Origin: an uncultured Pelagibacteraceae bacterium
GTDB lineage: Bacteria; Pseudomonadota; Alphaproteobacteria; Pelagibacterales; Pelagibacteraceae
Direction of reading: 5' to 3'
Assembly: GCA_902557155.1 (NCBI GenBank)
Contig: CACDYR010000002.1
Span: forward strand, 71,025 to 135,024
Length of the DNA: 64,000 nt
This document shows, one piece after another, positions 13,972 to 19,811 of this stretch. The number at the start of each line of letters is the position of its first letter. Position 1 is the first letter of the stretch. Made by a program: the position numbers and the translations under genes. The notes beneath the pieces were generated by a model. That model was not told the DNA's origin, did not search any database, and saw only the letters and a list, made by a program, of their open reading frames with translations.

Positions 13972-14682
13972 ATGTCAGAAAAATATCTAGTTTTTGGTGC
14001 GACAGGTTCTATTGGATCAAGTTTAGCGGAGCAATTAAAAAACTCTGGAAACAATATTCATTTAGTTGGAAGAAATGAAAGTGAACTTAGTTCTGTCGCT
14101 GAAAAACTTGGATGCACACATACCGTTGCAGATGTTTTAGAGGATGGGTTTATAGAAAAAGTTAAATCAGATATTTCTGAAATTAAAGGCCTAGCGTATT
14201 GTGTAGGTTCAATTGATTTGAAACCATTAAGAATGGTAAATGAACAAGACTTTCAAAAATGCATGAAACTTAATCTTTATTCTGCTGTAGAAGCTATTAA
14301 AGGATATCAGGAAAGTTTAAAAAAAAATAAAGGTTCAATAGTTTTATTTTCAACTGTTGCTGCTCAAAGAGGTTTTACCAATCATGCAATCATAGCTTCA
14401 GCAAAAGCTGCTGTTGAAGGATTGACGGTTTCTCTTGCAGCAGAATTCGCTCCAAACATAAGAGTGAATTGTGTGGCACCAAGTTTAACAAAATCTAAAA
14501 TAGCAGAACCAATGTTAAAAAATACTGCTATAGCTGAAGGTATTGCAAAAGCACATCCTCTTAAAAGATTAGGCGAAGGTAAAGACTCTGCTGCTCTTGC
14601 TAAATTCTTACTAACAGAAGATAGTTCTTGGGTTACAGGCCAAATAATTGCTGTAGATGGTGGTAGATCTAAACTTTCATAA
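13972..14682 (+). CDS. Short-chain dehydrogenase/reductase
   Basis: GATGSIG, ASAK, IRVNCVAP, VTGQIIAVDGG. Confidence 0.9.
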   Translation: MSEKYLVFGATGSIGSSLAEQLKNSGNNIHLVGRNESELSSVAEKLGCTHTVADVLEDGFIEKVKSDISEIKGLAYCVGSIDLKPLRMVNEQDFQKCMKLNLYSAVEAIKGYQESLKKNKGSIVLFSTVAAQRGFTNHAIIASAKAAVEGLTVSLAAEFAPNIRVNCVAPSLTKSKIAEPMLKNTAIAEGIAKAHPLKRLGEGKDSAALAKFLLTEDSSWVTGQIIAVDGGRSKLS

Positions 14683-15751
14683 AGTGATCAAATATTTTTT
14701 ATCGATATTTTTCTTTTTATTATTTTCATCGAAAAGTTTTTCTGAAAATTTTACTTTTAAAAAATTGACAGATTTAAATGACCCATGGGGATCATCTTTT
14801 ATAAATAATGAAGAGCTTATTATCACTGAAAAAACTGGAAAAATAAAAATAGTAAATATTATTTCTGAAGAAGTTTATGAAGTTGAACATAACTTAAATT
14901 ATTTTGTTCACGGACAAGGAGGCTTATTAGATATTATTTACAAAGATAATTACTTATGGATTTCTTATTCAGAAAATAGAGGAGACTGGAAAACTAGTAC
15001 ATCAATTGCAAAAGCTAAATTAAATAAAAAAAATTTAGATTTCAAAAATATATTTCAAGCTGAACCACCAATAGAATCTGGTTATCATTTCGGTTCAAGA
15101 CTGGCTATAAAAGAAAATTATCTTTTTGCATCTGCTGGTGAAAGAGGTGGTGGTATGATTGCTCAAGATCCGACTAGCCATCCTGGAAGTATTATCAGAA
15201 TTTATTTAGATGGTAGTATTCCAGAAGATAACCCTAAGTTTGATGGTAAATCAGATTGGTTACCAGAAATTTATCAAATTGGTGTTCGTAATCCTCAAGG
15301 TCTAACCTATTCCTCTTTTGATGGAAAAATTTATGCAAGCAACCATGGTGCAAAAGGTGGTGATTGGTTTGGTGAGATTAAAAAGGGAGAAAATTATGGT
15401 TGGAAAATTTTAGGTTGGGGCGGAACAAATTATTCAGGCTCAAAGATTGGACCTAAATGGAAACCAGGTTTTACTAAGGCAATCCAATACTGGGTACCTT
15501 CAATAGCTGCAAGTGCAATAACTATTTATAAGGGAAAAGAATTTAATGAATGGGATGGCGAAGCGCTCATTACTTCTTTAAAAGATAAATCAATGAGAAA
15601 ATTAAACTTTAAAAATTCATCAAAGATTGAAGAAGCAGTTATTTTCAAAGATAAAATTGGAAGAATAAGAGATATACAAGTTCACCCAGTTAATGGAAAA
15701 ATATATTTTCTTGCGGGAAACAGTTTGTGGTTAATGGAGAAAAAAAAATAA
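14657..15751 (+). CDS. PQQ-dependent sugar dehydrogenase (GSDH/YliI family); true start probably GTG near 14684
   Basis: GQGGLLDI, HFGSRL, GVRNPQGL, NYGW, GRIRDI; signal peptide. Confidence 0.9.
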   Translation: MVVDLNFHKVIKYFLSIFFFLLFSSKSFSENFTFKKLTDLNDPWGSSFINNEELIITEKTGKIKIVNIISEEVYEVEHNLNYFVHGQGGLLDIIYKDNYLWISYSENRGDWKTSTSIAKAKLNKKNLDFKNIFQAEPPIESGYHFGSRLAIKENYLFASAGERGGGMIAQDPTSHPGSIIRIYLDGSIPEDNPKFDGKSDWLPEIYQIGVRNPQGLTYSSFDGKIYASNHGAKGGDWFGEIKKGENYGWKILGWGGTNYSGSKIGPKWKPGFTKAIQYWVPSIAASAITIYKGKEFNEWDGEALITSLKDKSMRKLNFKNSSKIEEAVIFKDKIGRIRDIQVHPVNGKIYFLAGNSLWLMEKKK

Positions 15752-15752
15752 T

Positions 15753-16742
15753 ATGAAAGAAAGACCTTATCATCATTTACCTGATGGTACTTTCAGGAAT
15801 CCAAAAGGATCTCCAGTAATAATATCCAGATCAGGAAAATTTTCTTATAGAACTTTCAGTAAATTAAGAAAAAAAGTTGATTTATCTTATCCAAAAGAAC
15901 ATGTGATTGAAAAAGAAAAAGTATTAGCTGATTTAGAAAAATATAAAGATAATGATTATATTGCTTGGATAGGTCACGCGACATATCTTATAAAATTAGG
16001 TGGAACTACAATTATAACAGATCCTGTATTTTCAAAGAATGCTGGACCACTAATCTTTGGTCCAAAAAGATTTACTGATCCTGCAATAAAATTAAATGAG
16101 ATACCTAAAACGGATATATTTTTACTTACTCATAATCATTATGATCATCAGGACATGTCAACAATTAGAAATTTTCCTTTCAAGAGTGCAAAAGTATTGA
16201 CGCCATTAAACCTCGGTAAATATTTCAAAGGATATAAAGATGTAAATGAAATGGATTGGTATGATCAAATAATTATAAATGAGGATTTGAAAATTTCTTT
16301 ACTTCCTGCAGTTCATTGGTCAAAGAGAAGTTTAACAGACACTAATAAAACTTTGTGGGGTAATTTTTTAATAGAACATAAAAATAAAAAAATTTTATTT
16401 GCATGTGACACTGGATATGGGGAAATCTACAAAGAACTAGGTGAAAAATATGGTCCTATAGATCTGACAATGATTAATATTGGGGCTTATAATTTCAAAC
16501 CAATGTTTGATAAAACTATATATCATACTACGCCAGAGGAAGCCCTGAATGTTGCACAAGACCTAAAAAGTAAAAAAATATTAGGAATGCATTGGGGGAC
16601 ATTTGTTTTGTCATTAGAGCCGATTATGGAACCCCCAATTAGATTTAAAGATAGTGCTGAAAAATATGGTTTTAATAAAGAAGATGCAATTATTTTTAAA
16701 ATTGGAGAAGTTAGTCCTCTAGATAAATTGTTACAGAGTTAA
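15753..16742 (+). CDS. MBL-fold metallohydrolase (NAPE-PLD/RomA-like)
   Basis: WIGHAT, THNHYDH, ACDTGY, GMHWGTF. Confidence 0.9.
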   Translation: MKERPYHHLPDGTFRNPKGSPVIISRSGKFSYRTFSKLRKKVDLSYPKEHVIEKEKVLADLEKYKDNDYIAWIGHATYLIKLGGTTIITDPVFSKNAGPLIFGPKRFTDPAIKLNEIPKTDIFLLTHNHYDHQDMSTIRNFPFKSAKVLTPLNLGKYFKGYKDVNEMDWYDQIIINEDLKISLLPAVHWSKRSLTDTNKTLWGNFLIEHKNKKILFACDTGYGEIYKELGEKYGPIDLTMINIGAYNFKPMFDKTIYHTTPEEALNVAQDLKSKKILGMHWGTFVLSLEPIMEPPIRFKDSAEKYGFNKEDAIIFKIGEVSPLDKLLQS

Positions 16743-17657
16743 ATACTTAATTGCAAAAAATATAGTCCCTATAGATGCAATAGTAGACACAAAAATTGCT
16801 TTTATTATATTTTCGGGACTTACATTATAAGCGGCACATAAAACTATAGAAGTGACTCCACAAGGTGCAACACTAACGAAGAAAGCACCTGGTATTTCAG
16901 CTGGCAATCCTGCATTAAAAAACACTAATCCAATTAACAATAAAATTATCGGGGAAATAACTAATTTTAAAACTGAAATAGAAACAGATAATTTGTTAAT
17001 TACATTTTTAGTATAAAATGAAAGAGTTATGCCAATTGCAAACAATCCAACTGGCGAAACACATGCCGCAAGTTTAGACAGAGTATATTCAATCGGTGTT
17101 TGATCAATATTAAATTTTAATAATAAAAATAATAGACCTATAATTATTGAGAGAATAAATGGATTTAAAAATAAATTTTTAATAAAATTAGATAAATTTA
17201 CATTTTTTTTTGTAGATAATTCGAGAAATAAAGCGATTATAGATAATAAAATTATCCCATCCATTAATATAATACTTGCAACTTGTGTAATTACATTTTG
17301 TTCAAAATAAATTTCTGTTATTGGCAATAGCAAAGTCACATGGTTTGATAATGCAACTGTTAAAGCCCAAATAATTGACTCTGGGATTGATCTTTTAAAA
17401 TATTTTGAAGTAATTAAGTAAGCGATAATTCCACATATCGATTGCATAATTAAATAAGAAAAAATTTGTTTAAAATCTACTTGTCCAATTTCATTTTGTG
17501 CTATTAGCTTAATAATCAATGCTGGGACCGCAATATAGAACAAGAAAAGATTTAAAATTTTAGCATGGCTAAGGTCTAAGACTTTTAACTTACCAAATAC
17601 AAACCCTAAAAAAGTAATAAATATAAATGGAGTTAGTCCTAAAAAAATTGTGAACAT
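16731..17657 (-). CDS. AEC (auxin efflux carrier) family transporter
   Basis: About 10 TM; FYIAVPALI, SPVGLFAIG, APCGV. Confidence 0.8.
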   Translation of the reverse strand: MFTIFLGLTPFIFITFLGFVFGKLKVLDLSHAKILNLFLFYIAVPALIIKLIAQNEIGQVDFKQIFSYLIMQSICGIIAYLITSKYFKRSIPESIIWALTVALSNHVTLLLPITEIYFEQNVITQVASIILMDGIILLSIIALFLELSTKKNVNLSNFIKNLFLNPFILSIIIGLLFLLLKFNIDQTPIEYTLSKLAACVSPVGLFAIGITLSFYTKNVINKLSVSISVLKLVISPIILLLIGLVFFNAGLPAEIPGAFFVSVAPCGVTSIVLCAAYNVSPENIIKAIFVSTIASIGTIFFAIKYLTL

Positions 17658-17660
17658 AAA

Positions 17661-18452
17661 TTATTTGATTGTTATTCTATGCATTATTCTATTTCCTTTG
17701 AAAGGTGTTGCTTGATGAAGCATAGATCTATTATCCCATATAGCCAATTGATTTTTTTCCCAAGGCAATGAAAATTGAAACTTCTTCTTAATTTGATGGT
17801 TAAATAAAAATTTTTTTAACTTTTCTTGATTTTTTATCTTTGAGCTAAAACCAACAAAATGTCCTGGACTGCAATAAATAGAATAATTTGTGCTGATTTT
17901 CCTAATTATTTTATGTGAAGATTTAAGTTCTTTTATATTTTTTCCTTTTTCTTTTACTCTTTCTTTTGTTGTAACCGAGATTGGACCCTCAGAGGAATAT
18001 TTACCTTTAATATTTTTAAATTTTCTTTTTATTGGACTTGGTAATTCTTTATAAGCAAGATATTGAGAACAAAATTCTGTATTAGCTTTTCCTTTTTTTG
18101 GCACAAGTTTAGAAAGCAACATTGTAAATCTTGGTGGTTTTTTTGTATAAATCGAGTCTGTATGAAATTGTTCACCAAAACTTGGTCCTTTGTCAGTTGA
18201 TTTTCTTTGCACCACAGTAATTTGCGGAAATTTTTTATTTAAACCTTTTAGTCTTGGATAGTTGGCTAATTTTCCAAAATATTTCGCAAACTGAATGTAA
18301 AATTTAGAAGTTAATTCTTGTTGTTTAAAATACAACATTCCATATTTATTCAGTGCTTTCTTAATTTTTAAAATATCTTTATTCGTAATATCTTTTAAAT
18401 TTACAATTATTTCAGCTCCAATATTTTTTTTATTTGGAATTATTTTTAACAT
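17661..18452 (-). CDS. TauD/TfdA family Fe(II)/2-oxoglutarate dioxygenase
   Basis: FHTD (HxD), WDNRSMLH, HRITI. Confidence 0.9.
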   Translation of the reverse strand: MLKIIPNKKNIGAEIIVNLKDITNKDILKIKKALNKYGMLYFKQQELTSKFYIQFAKYFGKLANYPRLKGLNKKFPQITVVQRKSTDKGPSFGEQFHTDSIYTKKPPRFTMLLSKLVPKKGKANTEFCSQYLAYKELPSPIKRKFKNIKGKYSSEGPISVTTKERVKEKGKNIKELKSSHKIIRKISTNYSIYCSPGHFVGFSSKIKNQEKLKKFLFNHQIKKKFQFSLPWEKNQLAIWDNRSMLHQATPFKGNRIMHRITIK

Positions 18453-19317
18453 TTTTTAAAAAAAATTTTTTTAAGTGATTAATCGTTTGTTTAGGACTCT
18501 CTTCTGGAATGAAATGATCTGAATTAATTTCTGCCCCATAAACTTTTTTATTTGTGTATTTTTGCCAAATTTTAACTGATTTAAATTGCGTTCCAACAAC
18601 TCCCTTTTTACCCCACAAAACTTGTATAGGAATGTTTAATTTTTTTTTTCTGTCTTTTTTGTCATGCTCTAAGTCTATAGTGGCCGCAGCTCTATAATCC
18701 TCACAAGTTGCATGAATTCTTTTTTTTTGTTTAAAGGCTCTAAAATATTCATCTTCAACTTTTCCAATCGCACGTTTTGATGACCTATTAAAACGACTTT
18801 TTAACCATCTTTTAGGATCTGCCATTATCATTTTCTCTGGTAAAGGTGCTGGCTGTATTAAATAAAACCAGTGAAAATATCCTTTTGCAAATTTAATATC
18901 TGTATGCTCGTACATATCTAGAGTTGGACAAATATCTAATACACTTAAAGCCATAATCTTATTTCTATAATCTCTTGCCATTCTATGTGCAACTCTCCCG
19001 CCTCTATCATGTCCAGCAACAAAAAATTTTTTAAAATTTAATTTATTCATCAATTGAACCATATCTTTAGCCATTTCTCTTTTAGAATAATTTTTATGAT
19101 TAGTACCACCAGGTAAAACTAAACTATCTCCATATCCTCTAAGGTCAGCAACTATTACAGTGAAATATTTACTAAGCTCAGGGGCAGTCTTGTGCCACAT
19201 CACATGTGTTTGGGGATATCCATGAAGTAATAATAAGGGGGGACCGTTACCTTTAAATCTACAAAAAATTTTACCCTTGCTTACTTTAACAAATTTTTTT
19301 TTAAAACCATTAAACAT
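18430..19317 (-). CDS. Alpha/beta hydrolase, haloacetate (fluoroacetate) dehalogenase type
   Basis: LLHGYPQT, GHDRGGRVAHR, LDI, FHW, CEDYRA, HFIPEE. Confidence 0.85.
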   Translation of the reverse strand: MFNGFKKKFVKVSKGKIFCRFKGNGPPLLLLHGYPQTHVMWHKTAPELSKYFTVIVADLRGYGDSLVLPGGTNHKNYSKREMAKDMVQLMNKLNFKKFFVAGHDRGGRVAHRMARDYRNKIMALSVLDICPTLDMYEHTDIKFAKGYFHWFYLIQPAPLPEKMIMADPKRWLKSRFNRSSKRAIGKVEDEYFRAFKQKKRIHATCEDYRAAATIDLEHDKKDRKKKLNIPIQVLWGKKGVVGTQFKSVKIWQKYTNKKVYGAEINSDHFIPEESPKQTINHLKKFFLKNVKNNSK

Positions 19318-19328
19318 GATTAAACTAT

Positions 19329-19604
19329 TTAATTATTTAATAGTTTATTTTTCGCCTTTTCAAATTCCTCTTGAGAAATAATTCCTTTTTCTTTTAAATC
19401 ATTCAATTTAGTAAGTTCATCACTTAAATTGCTGCTTTGTTCATCAGAAGTTTCGCTTGTCTCCCTACCCTCACTTTCAGCTTCCTCTTTCTCAGCTCTA
19501 TTAGCTTCCTTAGACTTAAAACCATTCATAATTGCCATTCCACCTAAGTATAAAACATAAGCCATAATAGGAATAACCAATCCAAAAAAAATTATTTTTT
19601 CCAT
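19329..19604 (-). CDS. SHOCT-domain membrane protein
   Basis: N-terminal TM, acidic linker, C-terminal LTKLNDLKEKGIISQEEFEKAKNKLL. Confidence 0.85.
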   Translation of the reverse strand: MEKIIFFGLVIPIMAYVLYLGGMAIMNGFKSKEANRAEKEEAESEGRETSETSDEQSSNLSDELTKLNDLKEKGIISQEEFEKAKNKLLNN

Positions 19605-19607
19605 AAT

Positions 19608-19811
19608 TTAATCTTCATCTTCTTCACGCCAGTTTTTTTCATACATTAAATATGCAGCGTATATTACTGATACAGTACCTACAATCATACCATAATCAAA
19701 ACCAGTTTGCTTGTCATGCAAATACCAACCTAATTGTGTTGCCCCAATAGGTGGAACTGTAAGAAGCAAAAAAATTATACCAAATCTGTATGGTCGTTTA
19801 GGTTTTTTCAT
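19608..19811 (-). CDS. Hypothetical 2-TM protein
   Basis: ORF tightly packed with neighbours; two hydrophobic helices. Confidence 0.6.
   Translation of the reverse strand: MKKPKRPYRFGIIFLLLTVPPIGATQLGWYLHDKQTGFDYGMIVGTVSVIYAAYLMYEKNWREEDED

What the first reader, a model, noticed from the sequence alone, without database searches (positions are those of the whole stretch)
16731..19317. Dehalogenase-dioxygenase-transporter operon: possible C2 (glycolate/glyoxylate) salvage module
Seen: dehalogenase, TauD/TfdA dioxygenase and AEC transporter are co-oriented, with a 23-nt overlap and a 3-nt gap. Established: haloacetate dehalogenases yield glycolate; TfdA-type enzymes release glyoxylate from aryloxyacetates, while TauD-type enzymes release sulfite from sulfonates; cultured SAR11 need glycine or precursors and reduced sulfur. 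Inference: the operon strips substituents from substituted acetates to feed glyoxylate-to-glycine metabolism, or acts on sulfonates. The dioxygenase substrate cannot be read from sequence.
Basis: inference. Interest (0 to 1): 0.6.

Follow-up and report, generated by a model that had tools for sequence, protein, structure and literature searches.

The report
SAR11 dehalogenase, orphan dioxygenase, carrier cassette
This SAR11 ocean bacterium carries three tightly packed genes (a haloacetate-type dehalogenase, a dioxygenase found only in SAR11-like bacteria, and a small-anion carrier) that usually travel together but also occur singly in relatives, so they form an optional, modular toolkit whose substrates are untested.

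Summary
In detail: three minus-strand genes, with a 23-nt overlap and a 3-nt gap.

- **Gene 1** is a full sequence member of the fluoroacetate dehalogenase family. All nine catalytic and binding residues are present. Its best solved relative is the characterised enzyme NOS0089 (E 6e-90).
- **Gene 2** is a TauD/TfdA-fold Fe(II)/2-oxoglutarate dioxygenase in an orphan clade, about 30% identical to anything outside SAR11-like DNA. It keeps the metal, 2-oxoglutarate and anion-binding residues but lacks TauD's taurine-amine binders.
- **Gene 3** is a generic AEC carrier.

In 201 genomes of the genus, 70 carry at least one of the genes and 43 carry all three. The dehalogenase-dioxygenase-carrier order recurs at two unrelated chromosomal sites. 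Dehalogenase-only, dioxygenase-only and two-gene states also exist with intact catalytic residues, so this is a linked but modular accessory set, not one obligate pathway.

The C2-salvage idea fits this genome, which has glcD/E-like genes about 20 kb away and malate synthase. It does not generalise: no glcD was found in 43 of the 55 dehalogenase-bearing genomes. Sulfonate use as a sulfur source is not supported, because no sulfite reductase was found.

The scan had already noted this cassette in four other genomes, and one follow-up reached the same modular reading. The substrates remain untested.

The parts
18430..19317 (-). Fluoroacetate/haloacetate-dehalogenase-family alpha/beta hydrolase (D), 295 aa
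   Evidence: Pfam Abhydrolase_1, 100.3 bits. PDB phmmer: 3QYJ NOS0089/Alr0039 at E 6e-90, RPA1163 3R3U at 1.6e-76, FAc-DEX 1Y37 at 1.2e-65. Residues D104, R105, R108, D128, H149, W150, Y208 and H268 are present, and are invariant in 51 orthologues.
17661..18452 (-). Orphan TauD/TfdA-family Fe(II)/2-oxoglutarate dioxygenase (T), 263 aa; its start lies 23 nt inside the end of D
   Evidence: Pfam TauD, 134.8 bits. AF2 model has pLDDT 93.2. Foldseek matches RdpA/AAD-1 and TauD at TM 0.87-0.88 with 22-26% identity. H97/D99/H246, T125/R255 and R259 are conserved; TauD Y73/N95/S158 are replaced by L68/G93/P157. Only two full-length clusters above 40% identity exist among 1.84 billion representatives.
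16731..17657 (-). AEC (auxin-efflux-carrier, Mem_trans) family permease (A), 308 aa; starts 3 nt after the T stop
   Evidence: Pfam Mem_trans, 81.3 bits. TIGR00946 scores 61.5, below its 246 cut-off. Atlas neighbours are all generic AEC clusters. It lies 6-11 nt downstream of T in all 41 genomes where T and the carrier share a contig.

Best explanation
This is an accessory, modular three-gene cassette of one SAR11 genus. It most likely takes up small alpha-substituted carboxylates and cleaves off the substituent.

**Shown by sequence**
- D is a fluoroacetate-dehalogenase-type hydrolase with every catalytic, carboxylate-binding and halide-pocket residue.
- T is an intact Fe(II)/2-oxoglutarate hydroxylase (HxD...H triad, so not a halogenase). 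It keeps the arginine that binds the substrate's anionic group in TauD.
- A is an AEC-family secondary carrier.

**Inferred**
- A carries small organic anions.
- D attacks X-CH2-COO- with Asp104 by SN2 displacement. This gives glycolate plus halide from monohaloacetates, and glyoxylate from dihaloacetates.
- T hydroxylates the carbon next to a carboxylate or sulfonate on a substrate that D cannot hydrolyse. The unstable hydroxy intermediate then collapses to a 2-oxo product (glyoxylate, if the substrate is a substituted acetate) plus the leaving group.
- In this genome the products can enter GlcD/E-like glycolate oxidase and malate synthase.

The two enzymes act in parallel rather than as obligate successive steps, because each is kept alone in several lineages.
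For: **D membership.**. All nine residues checked are invariant in 51 orthologues with no internal stops. NOS0089, RPA1163 and FAc-DEX are characterised on fluoro-, chloro- and bromoacetate, and difluoroacetate gives glyoxylate (PMC11022551).

**T.** The triad, the 2OG binders and R259 (= TauD R270) are invariant in 61 orthologues. The fold is confirmed.

**Linkage.**
- 43 of the 70 genomes with any of the genes have all three.
- D>T>A, with D overlapping T and A 6-7 nt after T, occurs at site S1 (FolD-SHOCT...GSDH: 21 loci) and at site S2 (next to GMP reductase and a DAO+GCV_T gene: 11 loci).
- A rearranged form, T>A...D, occurs in 9 more loci.
- On the T tree the D>T>A order sits both in deep S2 clades and in the derived S1 clade. 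T identity there falls to about 70%, so the order is old and has been maintained.

**Downstream sinks in this genome.** A glcD-like gene (528.7 bits) with a glcE-like gene beside it at C2:65942-68078, and malate synthase G.
Against: - No activity data exist for any SAR11 copy, and I found no paper on it.
- At site S1 the states D, T, DM, TM, DTM, DTA and DTAM all occur (M = the neighbouring metallo-beta-lactamase-fold gene). G105 has D>A without T, and G026 has the three genes at three separate loci. Co-location may therefore partly reflect two insertion hot spots.
- glcD was not found in 43 of the 55 D-bearing genomes, some of them 95-97% complete.
- The 29 best non-SAR11 dehalogenase homologues have no TauD-family or AEC neighbour within 1.5 kb, so there is no independent recurrence of the pairing.
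- T is only 22-32% identical to any characterised or named enzyme. Its substrate class is a guess constrained only by R259.
- The direction of transport by A is unknown.
Confidence: 0.5

Rival explanations
1. There is no shared substrate. D, T and A are independent accessory genes that accumulate at the same two hypervariable insertion sites of a genome in which all genes are tightly packed. The 'operon' is a by-product of hot-spot insertion and vertical inheritance.
For: Every combination of D, T, A and the neighbouring metallo-beta-lactamase-fold gene occurs at site S1, and D-only and T-only copies keep all catalytic residues. Junctions of 10 nt or less are the rule across the region. Arrangement types follow T clades, so many of the 43 co-occurrences are inherited rather than independent. 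More distant T relatives (P0124, P0125) stand without D or A.
Against: The D/T overlap and the 6-11 nt T-A junction are preserved at two unrelated sites and across about 30% protein divergence. A is always immediately downstream of T when both share a contig, and is adjacent to D when T is missing (G105). Triple co-occurrence is 43 genomes, against about 4 expected under independence.
Confidence: 0.2
2. The cassette is for detoxification rather than nutrition. D removes toxic haloacetates (alkylating agents, or the fluorocitrate precursor) that enter through broad carboxylate carriers. A may export anions. Carbon gain is incidental.
For: D is found without a glcD sink in most genomes and alone in several lineages. 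A preprint argues that homologues of this enzyme family are selected for stress relief rather than metabolic gain (10.1101/2025.07.23.666183). The AEC family includes efflux carriers (my own knowledge).
Against: This does not explain the conserved coupling to a 2-oxoglutarate-consuming hydroxylase. Seawater haloacetate levels are low (my own knowledge, not checked here). The chemistry at D is the same as in the best explanation, so the two differ only in purpose.
Confidence: 0.15
3. T is a sulfonate or sulfate-ester dioxygenase of the TauD/AtsK type. It releases sulfite from an organosulfonate (for example sulfoacetate, giving glyoxylate plus sulfite) to gain carbon, not sulfur.
For: The TauD sulfonate-binding arginine is conserved as R259. 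The best NCBIfam hit is taurine dioxygenase, though far below its cut-off. The closest plasmid-borne relative (32% identity) sits next to a TSUP/TauE-type transporter. SAR11 is proposed to dispose of sulfite through AprAB (PMC12636525).
Against: TauD His70 and the amine binders Tyr73/Asn95/Ser158 are replaced. NF007104 scores 107.9 against a cut-off of 313. No sulfite exporter or sulfite-handling gene lies in the cassette. No sulfite reductase was found in the genome. The conserved partner is a carboxylate-specific dehalogenase.
Confidence: 0.1

Closest known systems
Fluoroacetate dehalogenases NOS0089/Alr0039 (Nostoc, 3QYJ), RPA1163 (Rhodopseudomonas palustris, 3R3U), FAc-DEX FA1 (Burkholderia, 1Y37), DehH1
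   Same: Alpha/beta-hydrolase fold. The Asp104-His268-Asp128 triad, the Arg105/Arg108 carboxylate clamp and the His149/Trp150/Tyr208 halide pocket are all present. Full-length alignment at E 6e-90 to 1e-65.
   Different: No activity data for the SAR11 protein. It is encoded in a 1.27-Mb streamlined oligotroph genome and overlaps a dioxygenase gene. The 29 best non-SAR11 homologues have no such neighbours.
TauD (E. coli taurine dioxygenase) and TfdA/RdpA/AAD-1 aryloxyalkanoate dioxygenases
   Same: Same double-stranded beta-helix fold (TM 0.87-0.88). The HxD...H iron triad, the Thr/Arg 2-oxoglutarate binders and the C-terminal Arg that binds the substrate's sulfonate or carboxylate are shared.
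   Different: Only 22-26% identity. At 263 aa it is 20-30 residues shorter. The taurine-specific residues are replaced (Y73L, N95G, S158P, H70Y, F206H). It is equidistant from the sulfonate and the aryloxyacetate branches. Outside the genus only two full-length clusters exceed 40% identity (57% and 51%, from low-GC SAR11-like marine contigs); everything else is about 32% or less.
tfd-type catabolic clusters that pair a TfdA dioxygenase with downstream enzymes and a transporter
   Same: A small substituted-acid catabolic cluster that combines a TauD/TfdA-family oxygenase with a permease.
   Different: There are no aromatic-ring genes, no regulator and no plasmid or IS context. The partner is a hydrolytic dehalogenase, and the genes can be lost one at a time. 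This comparison rests on my own knowledge of tfd clusters, not on a test here.
Bacterial AEC-family carboxylate carriers (MdcF malonate carrier, AEC-type malate permease)
   Same: Pfam Mem_trans membership and similar size. The characterised bacterial members move small carboxylates (my own knowledge).
   Different: There is no specific similarity to any characterised member: TIGR00946 is below its cut-off and Atlas neighbours are generic. Substrate and direction are unknown.

Membership tests
Fluoroacetate/haloacetate dehalogenase (alpha/beta-hydrolase type, EC 3.8.1.3) | Alpha/beta-hydrolase fold with full-length similarity to characterised members | tested here: met
   Abhydrolase_1 at 100.3 bits. 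3QYJ E 6e-90, 3R3U E 1.6e-76 and 1Y37 E 1.2e-65, over residues 1-286.
Fluoroacetate/haloacetate dehalogenase (alpha/beta-hydrolase type, EC 3.8.1.3) | Asp nucleophile with His-Asp relay (RPA1163 D110/H280/D134) | tested here: met
   D104, H268 and D128 align to them. They are invariant in 51 orthologues.
Fluoroacetate/haloacetate dehalogenase (alpha/beta-hydrolase type, EC 3.8.1.3) | Two Arg that clamp the substrate carboxylate (RPA1163 R111/R114), and the His-Trp-Tyr halide pocket (H155/W156/Y219) | tested here: met
   R105, R108, H149, W150 and Y208 are present and invariant. The RPA1163 residue numbers come from my own knowledge; the alignment register was checked.
Fluoroacetate/haloacetate dehalogenase (alpha/beta-hydrolase type, EC 3.8.1.3) | Halide release from haloacetates | not testable with these tools
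   This needs an enzyme assay.
TauD/TfdA Fe(II)/2-oxoglutarate dioxygenase superfamily (PF02668) | Domain above the Pfam cut-off, DSBH fold, HxD...H triad, and Thr/Arg 2-oxoglutarate binders | tested here: met
   134.8 bits against a cut-off of 27. AF2 pLDDT 93 with TM 0.87-0.88 to TauD and RdpA. H97, D99, H246, T125 and R255 are present.
Taurine dioxygenase TauD proper | Equivalog-level score and the taurine-binding residues His70, Tyr73, Asn95 and Ser158 | tested here: not met
   NF007104 scores 107.9 against a cut-off of 313. The aligned residues are Y65, L68, G93 and P157. Only the sulfonate-binding Arg (R259) is kept.
TfdA/RdpA aryloxyalkanoate dioxygenases | Specific similarity and the substrate-binding residues of TfdA or RdpA | tested here: inconclusive
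   The best PDB hit is RdpA, but at only 86.6 bits and 22-24% identity. I had no usable TfdA sequence or residue list to map, so the binding residues were not compared.
AEC transporter family (TC 2.A.69, PF03547) | Mem_trans domain over the whole length | tested here: met
   81.3 bits against a cut-off of 25.7, covering residues 8-300. The subfamily model TIGR00946 is below its cut-off (61.5 against 246).
Operon (one transcription unit, one pathway) | Conserved order and junctions across genomes | tested here: met
   D overlaps T by 4-19 nt in every genome where D lies directly upstream of T, and A starts 6-11 nt after T in all 41 cases. This holds at two chromosomal sites.
Operon (one transcription unit, one pathway) | Genes are needed together (obligate co-occurrence) | tested here: not met
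   T only in 14 genomes, D only in 3, T+D in 6, D+A in 3 and T+A in 1, out of 70 genomes carrying any of the genes. The single copies are intact.
Operon (one transcription unit, one pathway) | Co-transcription | not testable with these tools
   The consensus scan gives no informative promoter or terminator: 25 promoter-like sites against 30.4 expected from shuffles. No Rfam element is present.

The most novel reading that the evidence does not exclude
The orphan dioxygenase T makes glyoxylate with 2-oxoglutarate as co-substrate. It would oxidise glycolate itself (alcohol to gem-diol to aldehyde, as thymine hydroxylase and TET enzymes do with hydroxymethyl groups) or another natural alpha-substituted acetate. 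D>T would then be a two-step route from haloacetates to glyoxylate, and so to glycine, that works without GlcDEF. That would explain why the roughly 20 genomes with the cassette at the second site show no glcD. It would add a new reaction to the TauD/TfdA family and a new carbon and glycine source for the ocean's most abundant heterotroph.
Probability: 0.1. Interest if true: 0.75.

Novelty: new variant of a known kind. Interest (0 to 1): 0.45.

Why it matters
SAR11 is the most abundant heterotroph in the surface ocean, and its strain-level differences in substrate use are carried by small flexible gene sets like this one.

- A working haloacetate dehalogenase in about a quarter of the sampled genomes of one SAR11 genus would make these cells a sink for natural and man-made haloacetates. 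Where glcDEF is present, it could feed the glycolate-to-glyoxylate-to-glycine route on which some strains depend.
- The dioxygenase is a clean target for enzyme discovery: a compact 263-aa member of a well-studied superfamily with no characterised relative above about 30% identity.
- Relatives form a ready-made series of natural knock-outs: all three genes, dehalogenase+dioxygenase, dioxygenase only, dehalogenase only, or none, each with or without glcD. Several are closed genomes, so the hypotheses can be tested directly wherever cultures exist.

Tried and rejected
- **Literature.** Nine full-text searches and seven papers read. Nothing describes this cassette or a SAR11 haloacetate dehalogenase. 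The AAD-1 structure paper was not in the library, so RdpA and TfdA binding residues could not be mapped.
- **The metallo-beta-lactamase-fold gene next to the carrier (15753-16742) as a fourth member.** Rejected. It is near-core (142 of 201 genomes) and sits elsewhere in genomes that have the cassette at the other site, despite a 69% orthologue 2.5 kb from a distant T relative.
- **The SHOCT ORF and the 67-aa ORF upstream as members.** Rejected. They are present at site S1 whatever the cassette state.
- **The DAO+GCV_T 'dimethylglycine-dehydrogenase-like' gene and the ABC transporter directly upstream of T in some genomes, as functional partners.** Not adopted. Both are core genes, found at other places in this genome, so the adjacency looks like a hot-spot boundary.
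- **The 'IMPDH-like' neighbour.** It is GMP reductase, a housekeeping gene.
- **The alpha/beta hydrolase next to a TauD paralogue in the sister family.** It is a Ser-nucleophile, membrane-anchored enzyme and is unrelated.
- **Riboswitch or other RNA element.** None found.
- **Promoter and terminator scan.** Uninformative.
- **Nearest plasmid relatives of T.** About 30% identity with mixed contexts: one beside a TSUP transporter, one beside a TTT binding protein. Too distant to transfer a function.
- **Complex prediction.** Not run, because I do not claim that D and T bind each other.
Full report
**Observation.**
- 18430-19317 (295 aa, D)
- 17661-18452 (263 aa, T)
- 16731-17657 (308 aa, A)

I read both junctions base by base. 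The D stop (TAA, 18432-18430) lies 23 nt inside T, and A's ATG follows T's TAA after three bases. Pfam gives Abhydrolase_1, TauD and Mem_trans, all above their cut-offs.

Tight spacing itself means little here, because almost every junction in the 12-24 kb stretch is 10 nt or less. A SHOCT-domain ORF (19329-19604) ends 11 nt before D, and a 67-aa membrane ORF (19608-19811) precedes it. The promoter and terminator scan and Rfam are uninformative.

**The dehalogenase (D).** D is a full sequence member of the fluoroacetate dehalogenase family. Its best solved relative is 3QYJ, Alr0039/NOS0089 of Nostoc (E 6e-90), followed by RPA1163 (1.6e-76) and FAc-DEX FA1 (1.2e-65). NOS0089, RPA1163 and FAc-DEX are characterised on fluoro-, chloro- and bromoacetate. 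NOS0089 also converts difluoroacetate to glyoxylate (PMC11022551).

The alignment register maps these residues onto D:
- the nucleophile and relay: D104, H268, D128
- the carboxylate clamp: R105, R108
- the halide pocket: H149, W150, Y208

All of them are invariant in 51 orthologues, none of which has an internal stop. Homologues at 37-53% identity occur in 77 of the 400 other sampled Pseudomonadota genomes, so the family is widespread. None of the 29 best non-SAR11 copies has a TauD-family or AEC gene within 1.5 kb.

**The dioxygenase (T).** T is a real Fe(II)/2-oxoglutarate hydroxylase, but an orphan one.
- The AlphaFold model is confident (pLDDT 93.2). It matches RdpA/AAD-1 and TauD equally well (TM 0.87-0.88, 22-26% identity).
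- Against E. coli TauD it keeps the iron triad (H97, D99, H246), the 2-oxoglutarate binders (T125, R255) and the arginine that binds the substrate's anionic group (R259 = TauD R270).
- It replaces His70 and the taurine amine binders Tyr73/Asn95/Ser158 with Y65, L68, G93 and P157, and Phe206 with H198. All these positions are invariant in 61 orthologues.
- The taurine-dioxygenase equivalog model scores 107.9 against a cut-off of 313.
- Among 1.84 billion representative proteins, only two full-length clusters exceed 40% identity (57% and 51%). The next relatives are at about 32%.
- Those two come from low-GC, SAR11-like marine contigs and stand without D or A.

T is therefore neither TauD proper nor demonstrably TfdA-like. 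What can be said is that it hydroxylates something carrying an anionic group.

**The carrier (A).** A is a generic AEC-family permease. Characterised bacterial AEC members move small carboxylates (my own knowledge). Nothing specific can be read from the sequence.

**Co-conservation.** Counts in 201 sampled genomes of the genus:

| State | Genomes |
|---|---|
| T found | 64 |
| D found | 55 |
| A found | 47 |
| Any of the three | 70 |
| All three | 43 |
| T only | 14 |
| T+D | 6 |
| D only | 3 |
| D+A | 3 |
| T+A | 1 |

The sister family has only T paralogues at about 33% identity.

I fetched 72 loci and mapped marker genes on them. The genes sit at two hot spots. M below is the neighbouring metallo-beta-lactamase-fold gene.

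- **Site S1**, the window's site between FolD-SHOCT and GSDH-SDR, holds:
  - D>T>A in 21 loci (18 with M visible beside A, two cut by a contig end, and G083 without M)
  - D>T>M in G200
  - T>M in G142 and G114
  - T alone in 5 loci
  - D>M in 2 loci
  - D alone in 3 loci
- **Site S2**, beside GMP reductase and a DAO+GCV_T gene, holds:
  - D>T>A in 11 loci
  - D>T in G025
  - D>A without T in G105
  - a rearranged T>A, then tartrate dehydrogenase and GMP reductase on the other strand, then D, in 9 loci
- T also follows a tartrate dehydrogenase gene directly in G026, G171 and G192.
- G026 keeps D, T and A at three separate loci.

On a quick maximum-likelihood tree of T, each arrangement is clade-specific. 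D>T>A appears both in deep S2 clades and in the derived S1 clade. The linked order is therefore old and maintained, and the single-gene states are later losses.

**Reading.** The recurrence of the same order and junctions at two unrelated sites, over about 30% protein divergence, argues for a functional link. The repeated survival of D alone and of T alone, with intact active sites, argues that neither enzyme needs the other. The most economical model is a modular kit:
- A is a carrier for small organic anions.
- D is a hydrolytic dehalogenase for haloacetates. It would give glycolate from monohaloacetates and glyoxylate from dihaloacetates.
- T is an oxidative enzyme that removes substituents D cannot displace, from a related anionic substrate.

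Only the family memberships and residues are shown. Substrates, transport direction and co-transcription are inferred.

**The C2-salvage idea.**
- *In this genome it is plausible.* A glcD-like gene (528.7 bits, just under the 567.9 cut-off) with a glcE-like neighbour lies at C2:65942-68078, about 20 kb from the cassette. Malate synthase G is present.
- *Background.* Glycolate replaces glycine only in SAR11 strains that have glcDEF (PMC6775983).
- *It does not generalise.* glcD is itself accessory (29 of 201 genomes). Only 12 of the 55 D-bearing genomes have it. None of the roughly 20 genomes with the cassette at S2 do, although several are 95-97% complete.
- *Speculation from that gap.* T might itself oxidise glycolate. 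But six T-only genomes do carry glcD, so T is not a simple replacement.

**The sulfonate idea.** As a route to sulfur it fails. The chemistry yields sulfite, and no sulfite reductase domain was found in the 95.5%-complete genome. As a route to carbon it stays open but weak. R259 is kept, and a 32% plasmid relative sits beside a TSUP transporter. However, the taurine residues are gone, and the conserved partner is a carboxylate-specific enzyme.

**What is not part of it.**
- The metallo-beta-lactamase-fold gene that converges on A is near-core (142 of 201 genomes) and lies elsewhere in S2-type genomes.
- The DAO+GCV_T gene, the ABC transporter and GMP reductase that flank the cassette at S2 are core genes, found at other places in this genome.

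**Unexplained.** A tartrate dehydrogenase (TIGR02089, 554.9 bits) is accessory, present in 38 of 201 genomes. Thirty-six of those 38 also carry T, and it is often adjacent to T. It is absent from this genome.

**Novelty.** I found no paper on this cassette. The scan itself had already noted it in four other genomes, and one follow-up (e1-5183145) reached the same modular reading, which my own counts confirm. D is a new member of a known family. T is an uncharacterised subfamily of a known superfamily. The combination is specific to this SAR11 genus among the genomes searched. I rate it a new variant of a known kind, of moderate interest. It has a clear experimental path, because closed genomes in the sample (G013, G114, G171, G200, G223) span most of the gene combinations.

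Noticed in passing
window 19608-19811 (-) and 19329-19604 (-): Two small membrane-protein ORFs sit between FolD and the dehalogenase: one of 67 aa with no family tested, and one of 91 aa with a SHOCT domain. They are separated by 3 nt and 11 nt. Both are conserved at this site whether or not the cassette is present.
   Followed up: partly
G000 contig C2:65942-68078, about 3 kb upstream of the window start: glcD-like and glcE-like genes lie here. The glcD orthologue is accessory in the genus (29 of 201 genomes). In several genomes of the window's clade it lies about 20 kb from the cassette on the same contig (G000, G120, G127, G158, G069, G223).
   Followed up: partly
L033:5995-7062 (G004) and equivalents; absent from the window's genome: An accessory tartrate dehydrogenase (TIGR02089, 554.9 bits) is present in 38 of 201 genomes. 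Thirty-six of those also carry the orphan dioxygenase, and the two genes are often adjacent. No mechanism is known.
   Followed up: partly
window 15753-16742 (+): A metallo-beta-lactamase-fold protein (Lactamase_B_2, 329 aa) overlaps the carrier gene's 3' end by 12 nt, convergently. It is near-core in the genus (142 of 201). It moves between this site and other loci, and is 69% identical to a copy on a distant SAR11-like contig (L037).
   Followed up: yes
window 13972-19604 and the matching loci L025-L105: The interval between the SHOCT ORF and the GSDH/SDR genes is a gene-content hot spot, with seven different states across relatives. G165 and G086 have a larger deletion that also removes GSDH, SDR and the next gene.
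   Followed up: yes
G000 C3:14686-19086: The second hot spot (GMP reductase / DAO+GCV_T gene) is present in this genome without the cassette. About 930 bp between the two genes was not examined.
   Followed up: no
G000 C3:56656-57342 and C4:38814-39533: Two longer TauD-family ORFs (370 and 385 aa), plus a weak fourth hit, exist elsewhere in the genome. I did not characterise them. Their size suggests gamma-butyrobetaine-hydroxylase-like enzymes (my own guess).
   Followed up: no
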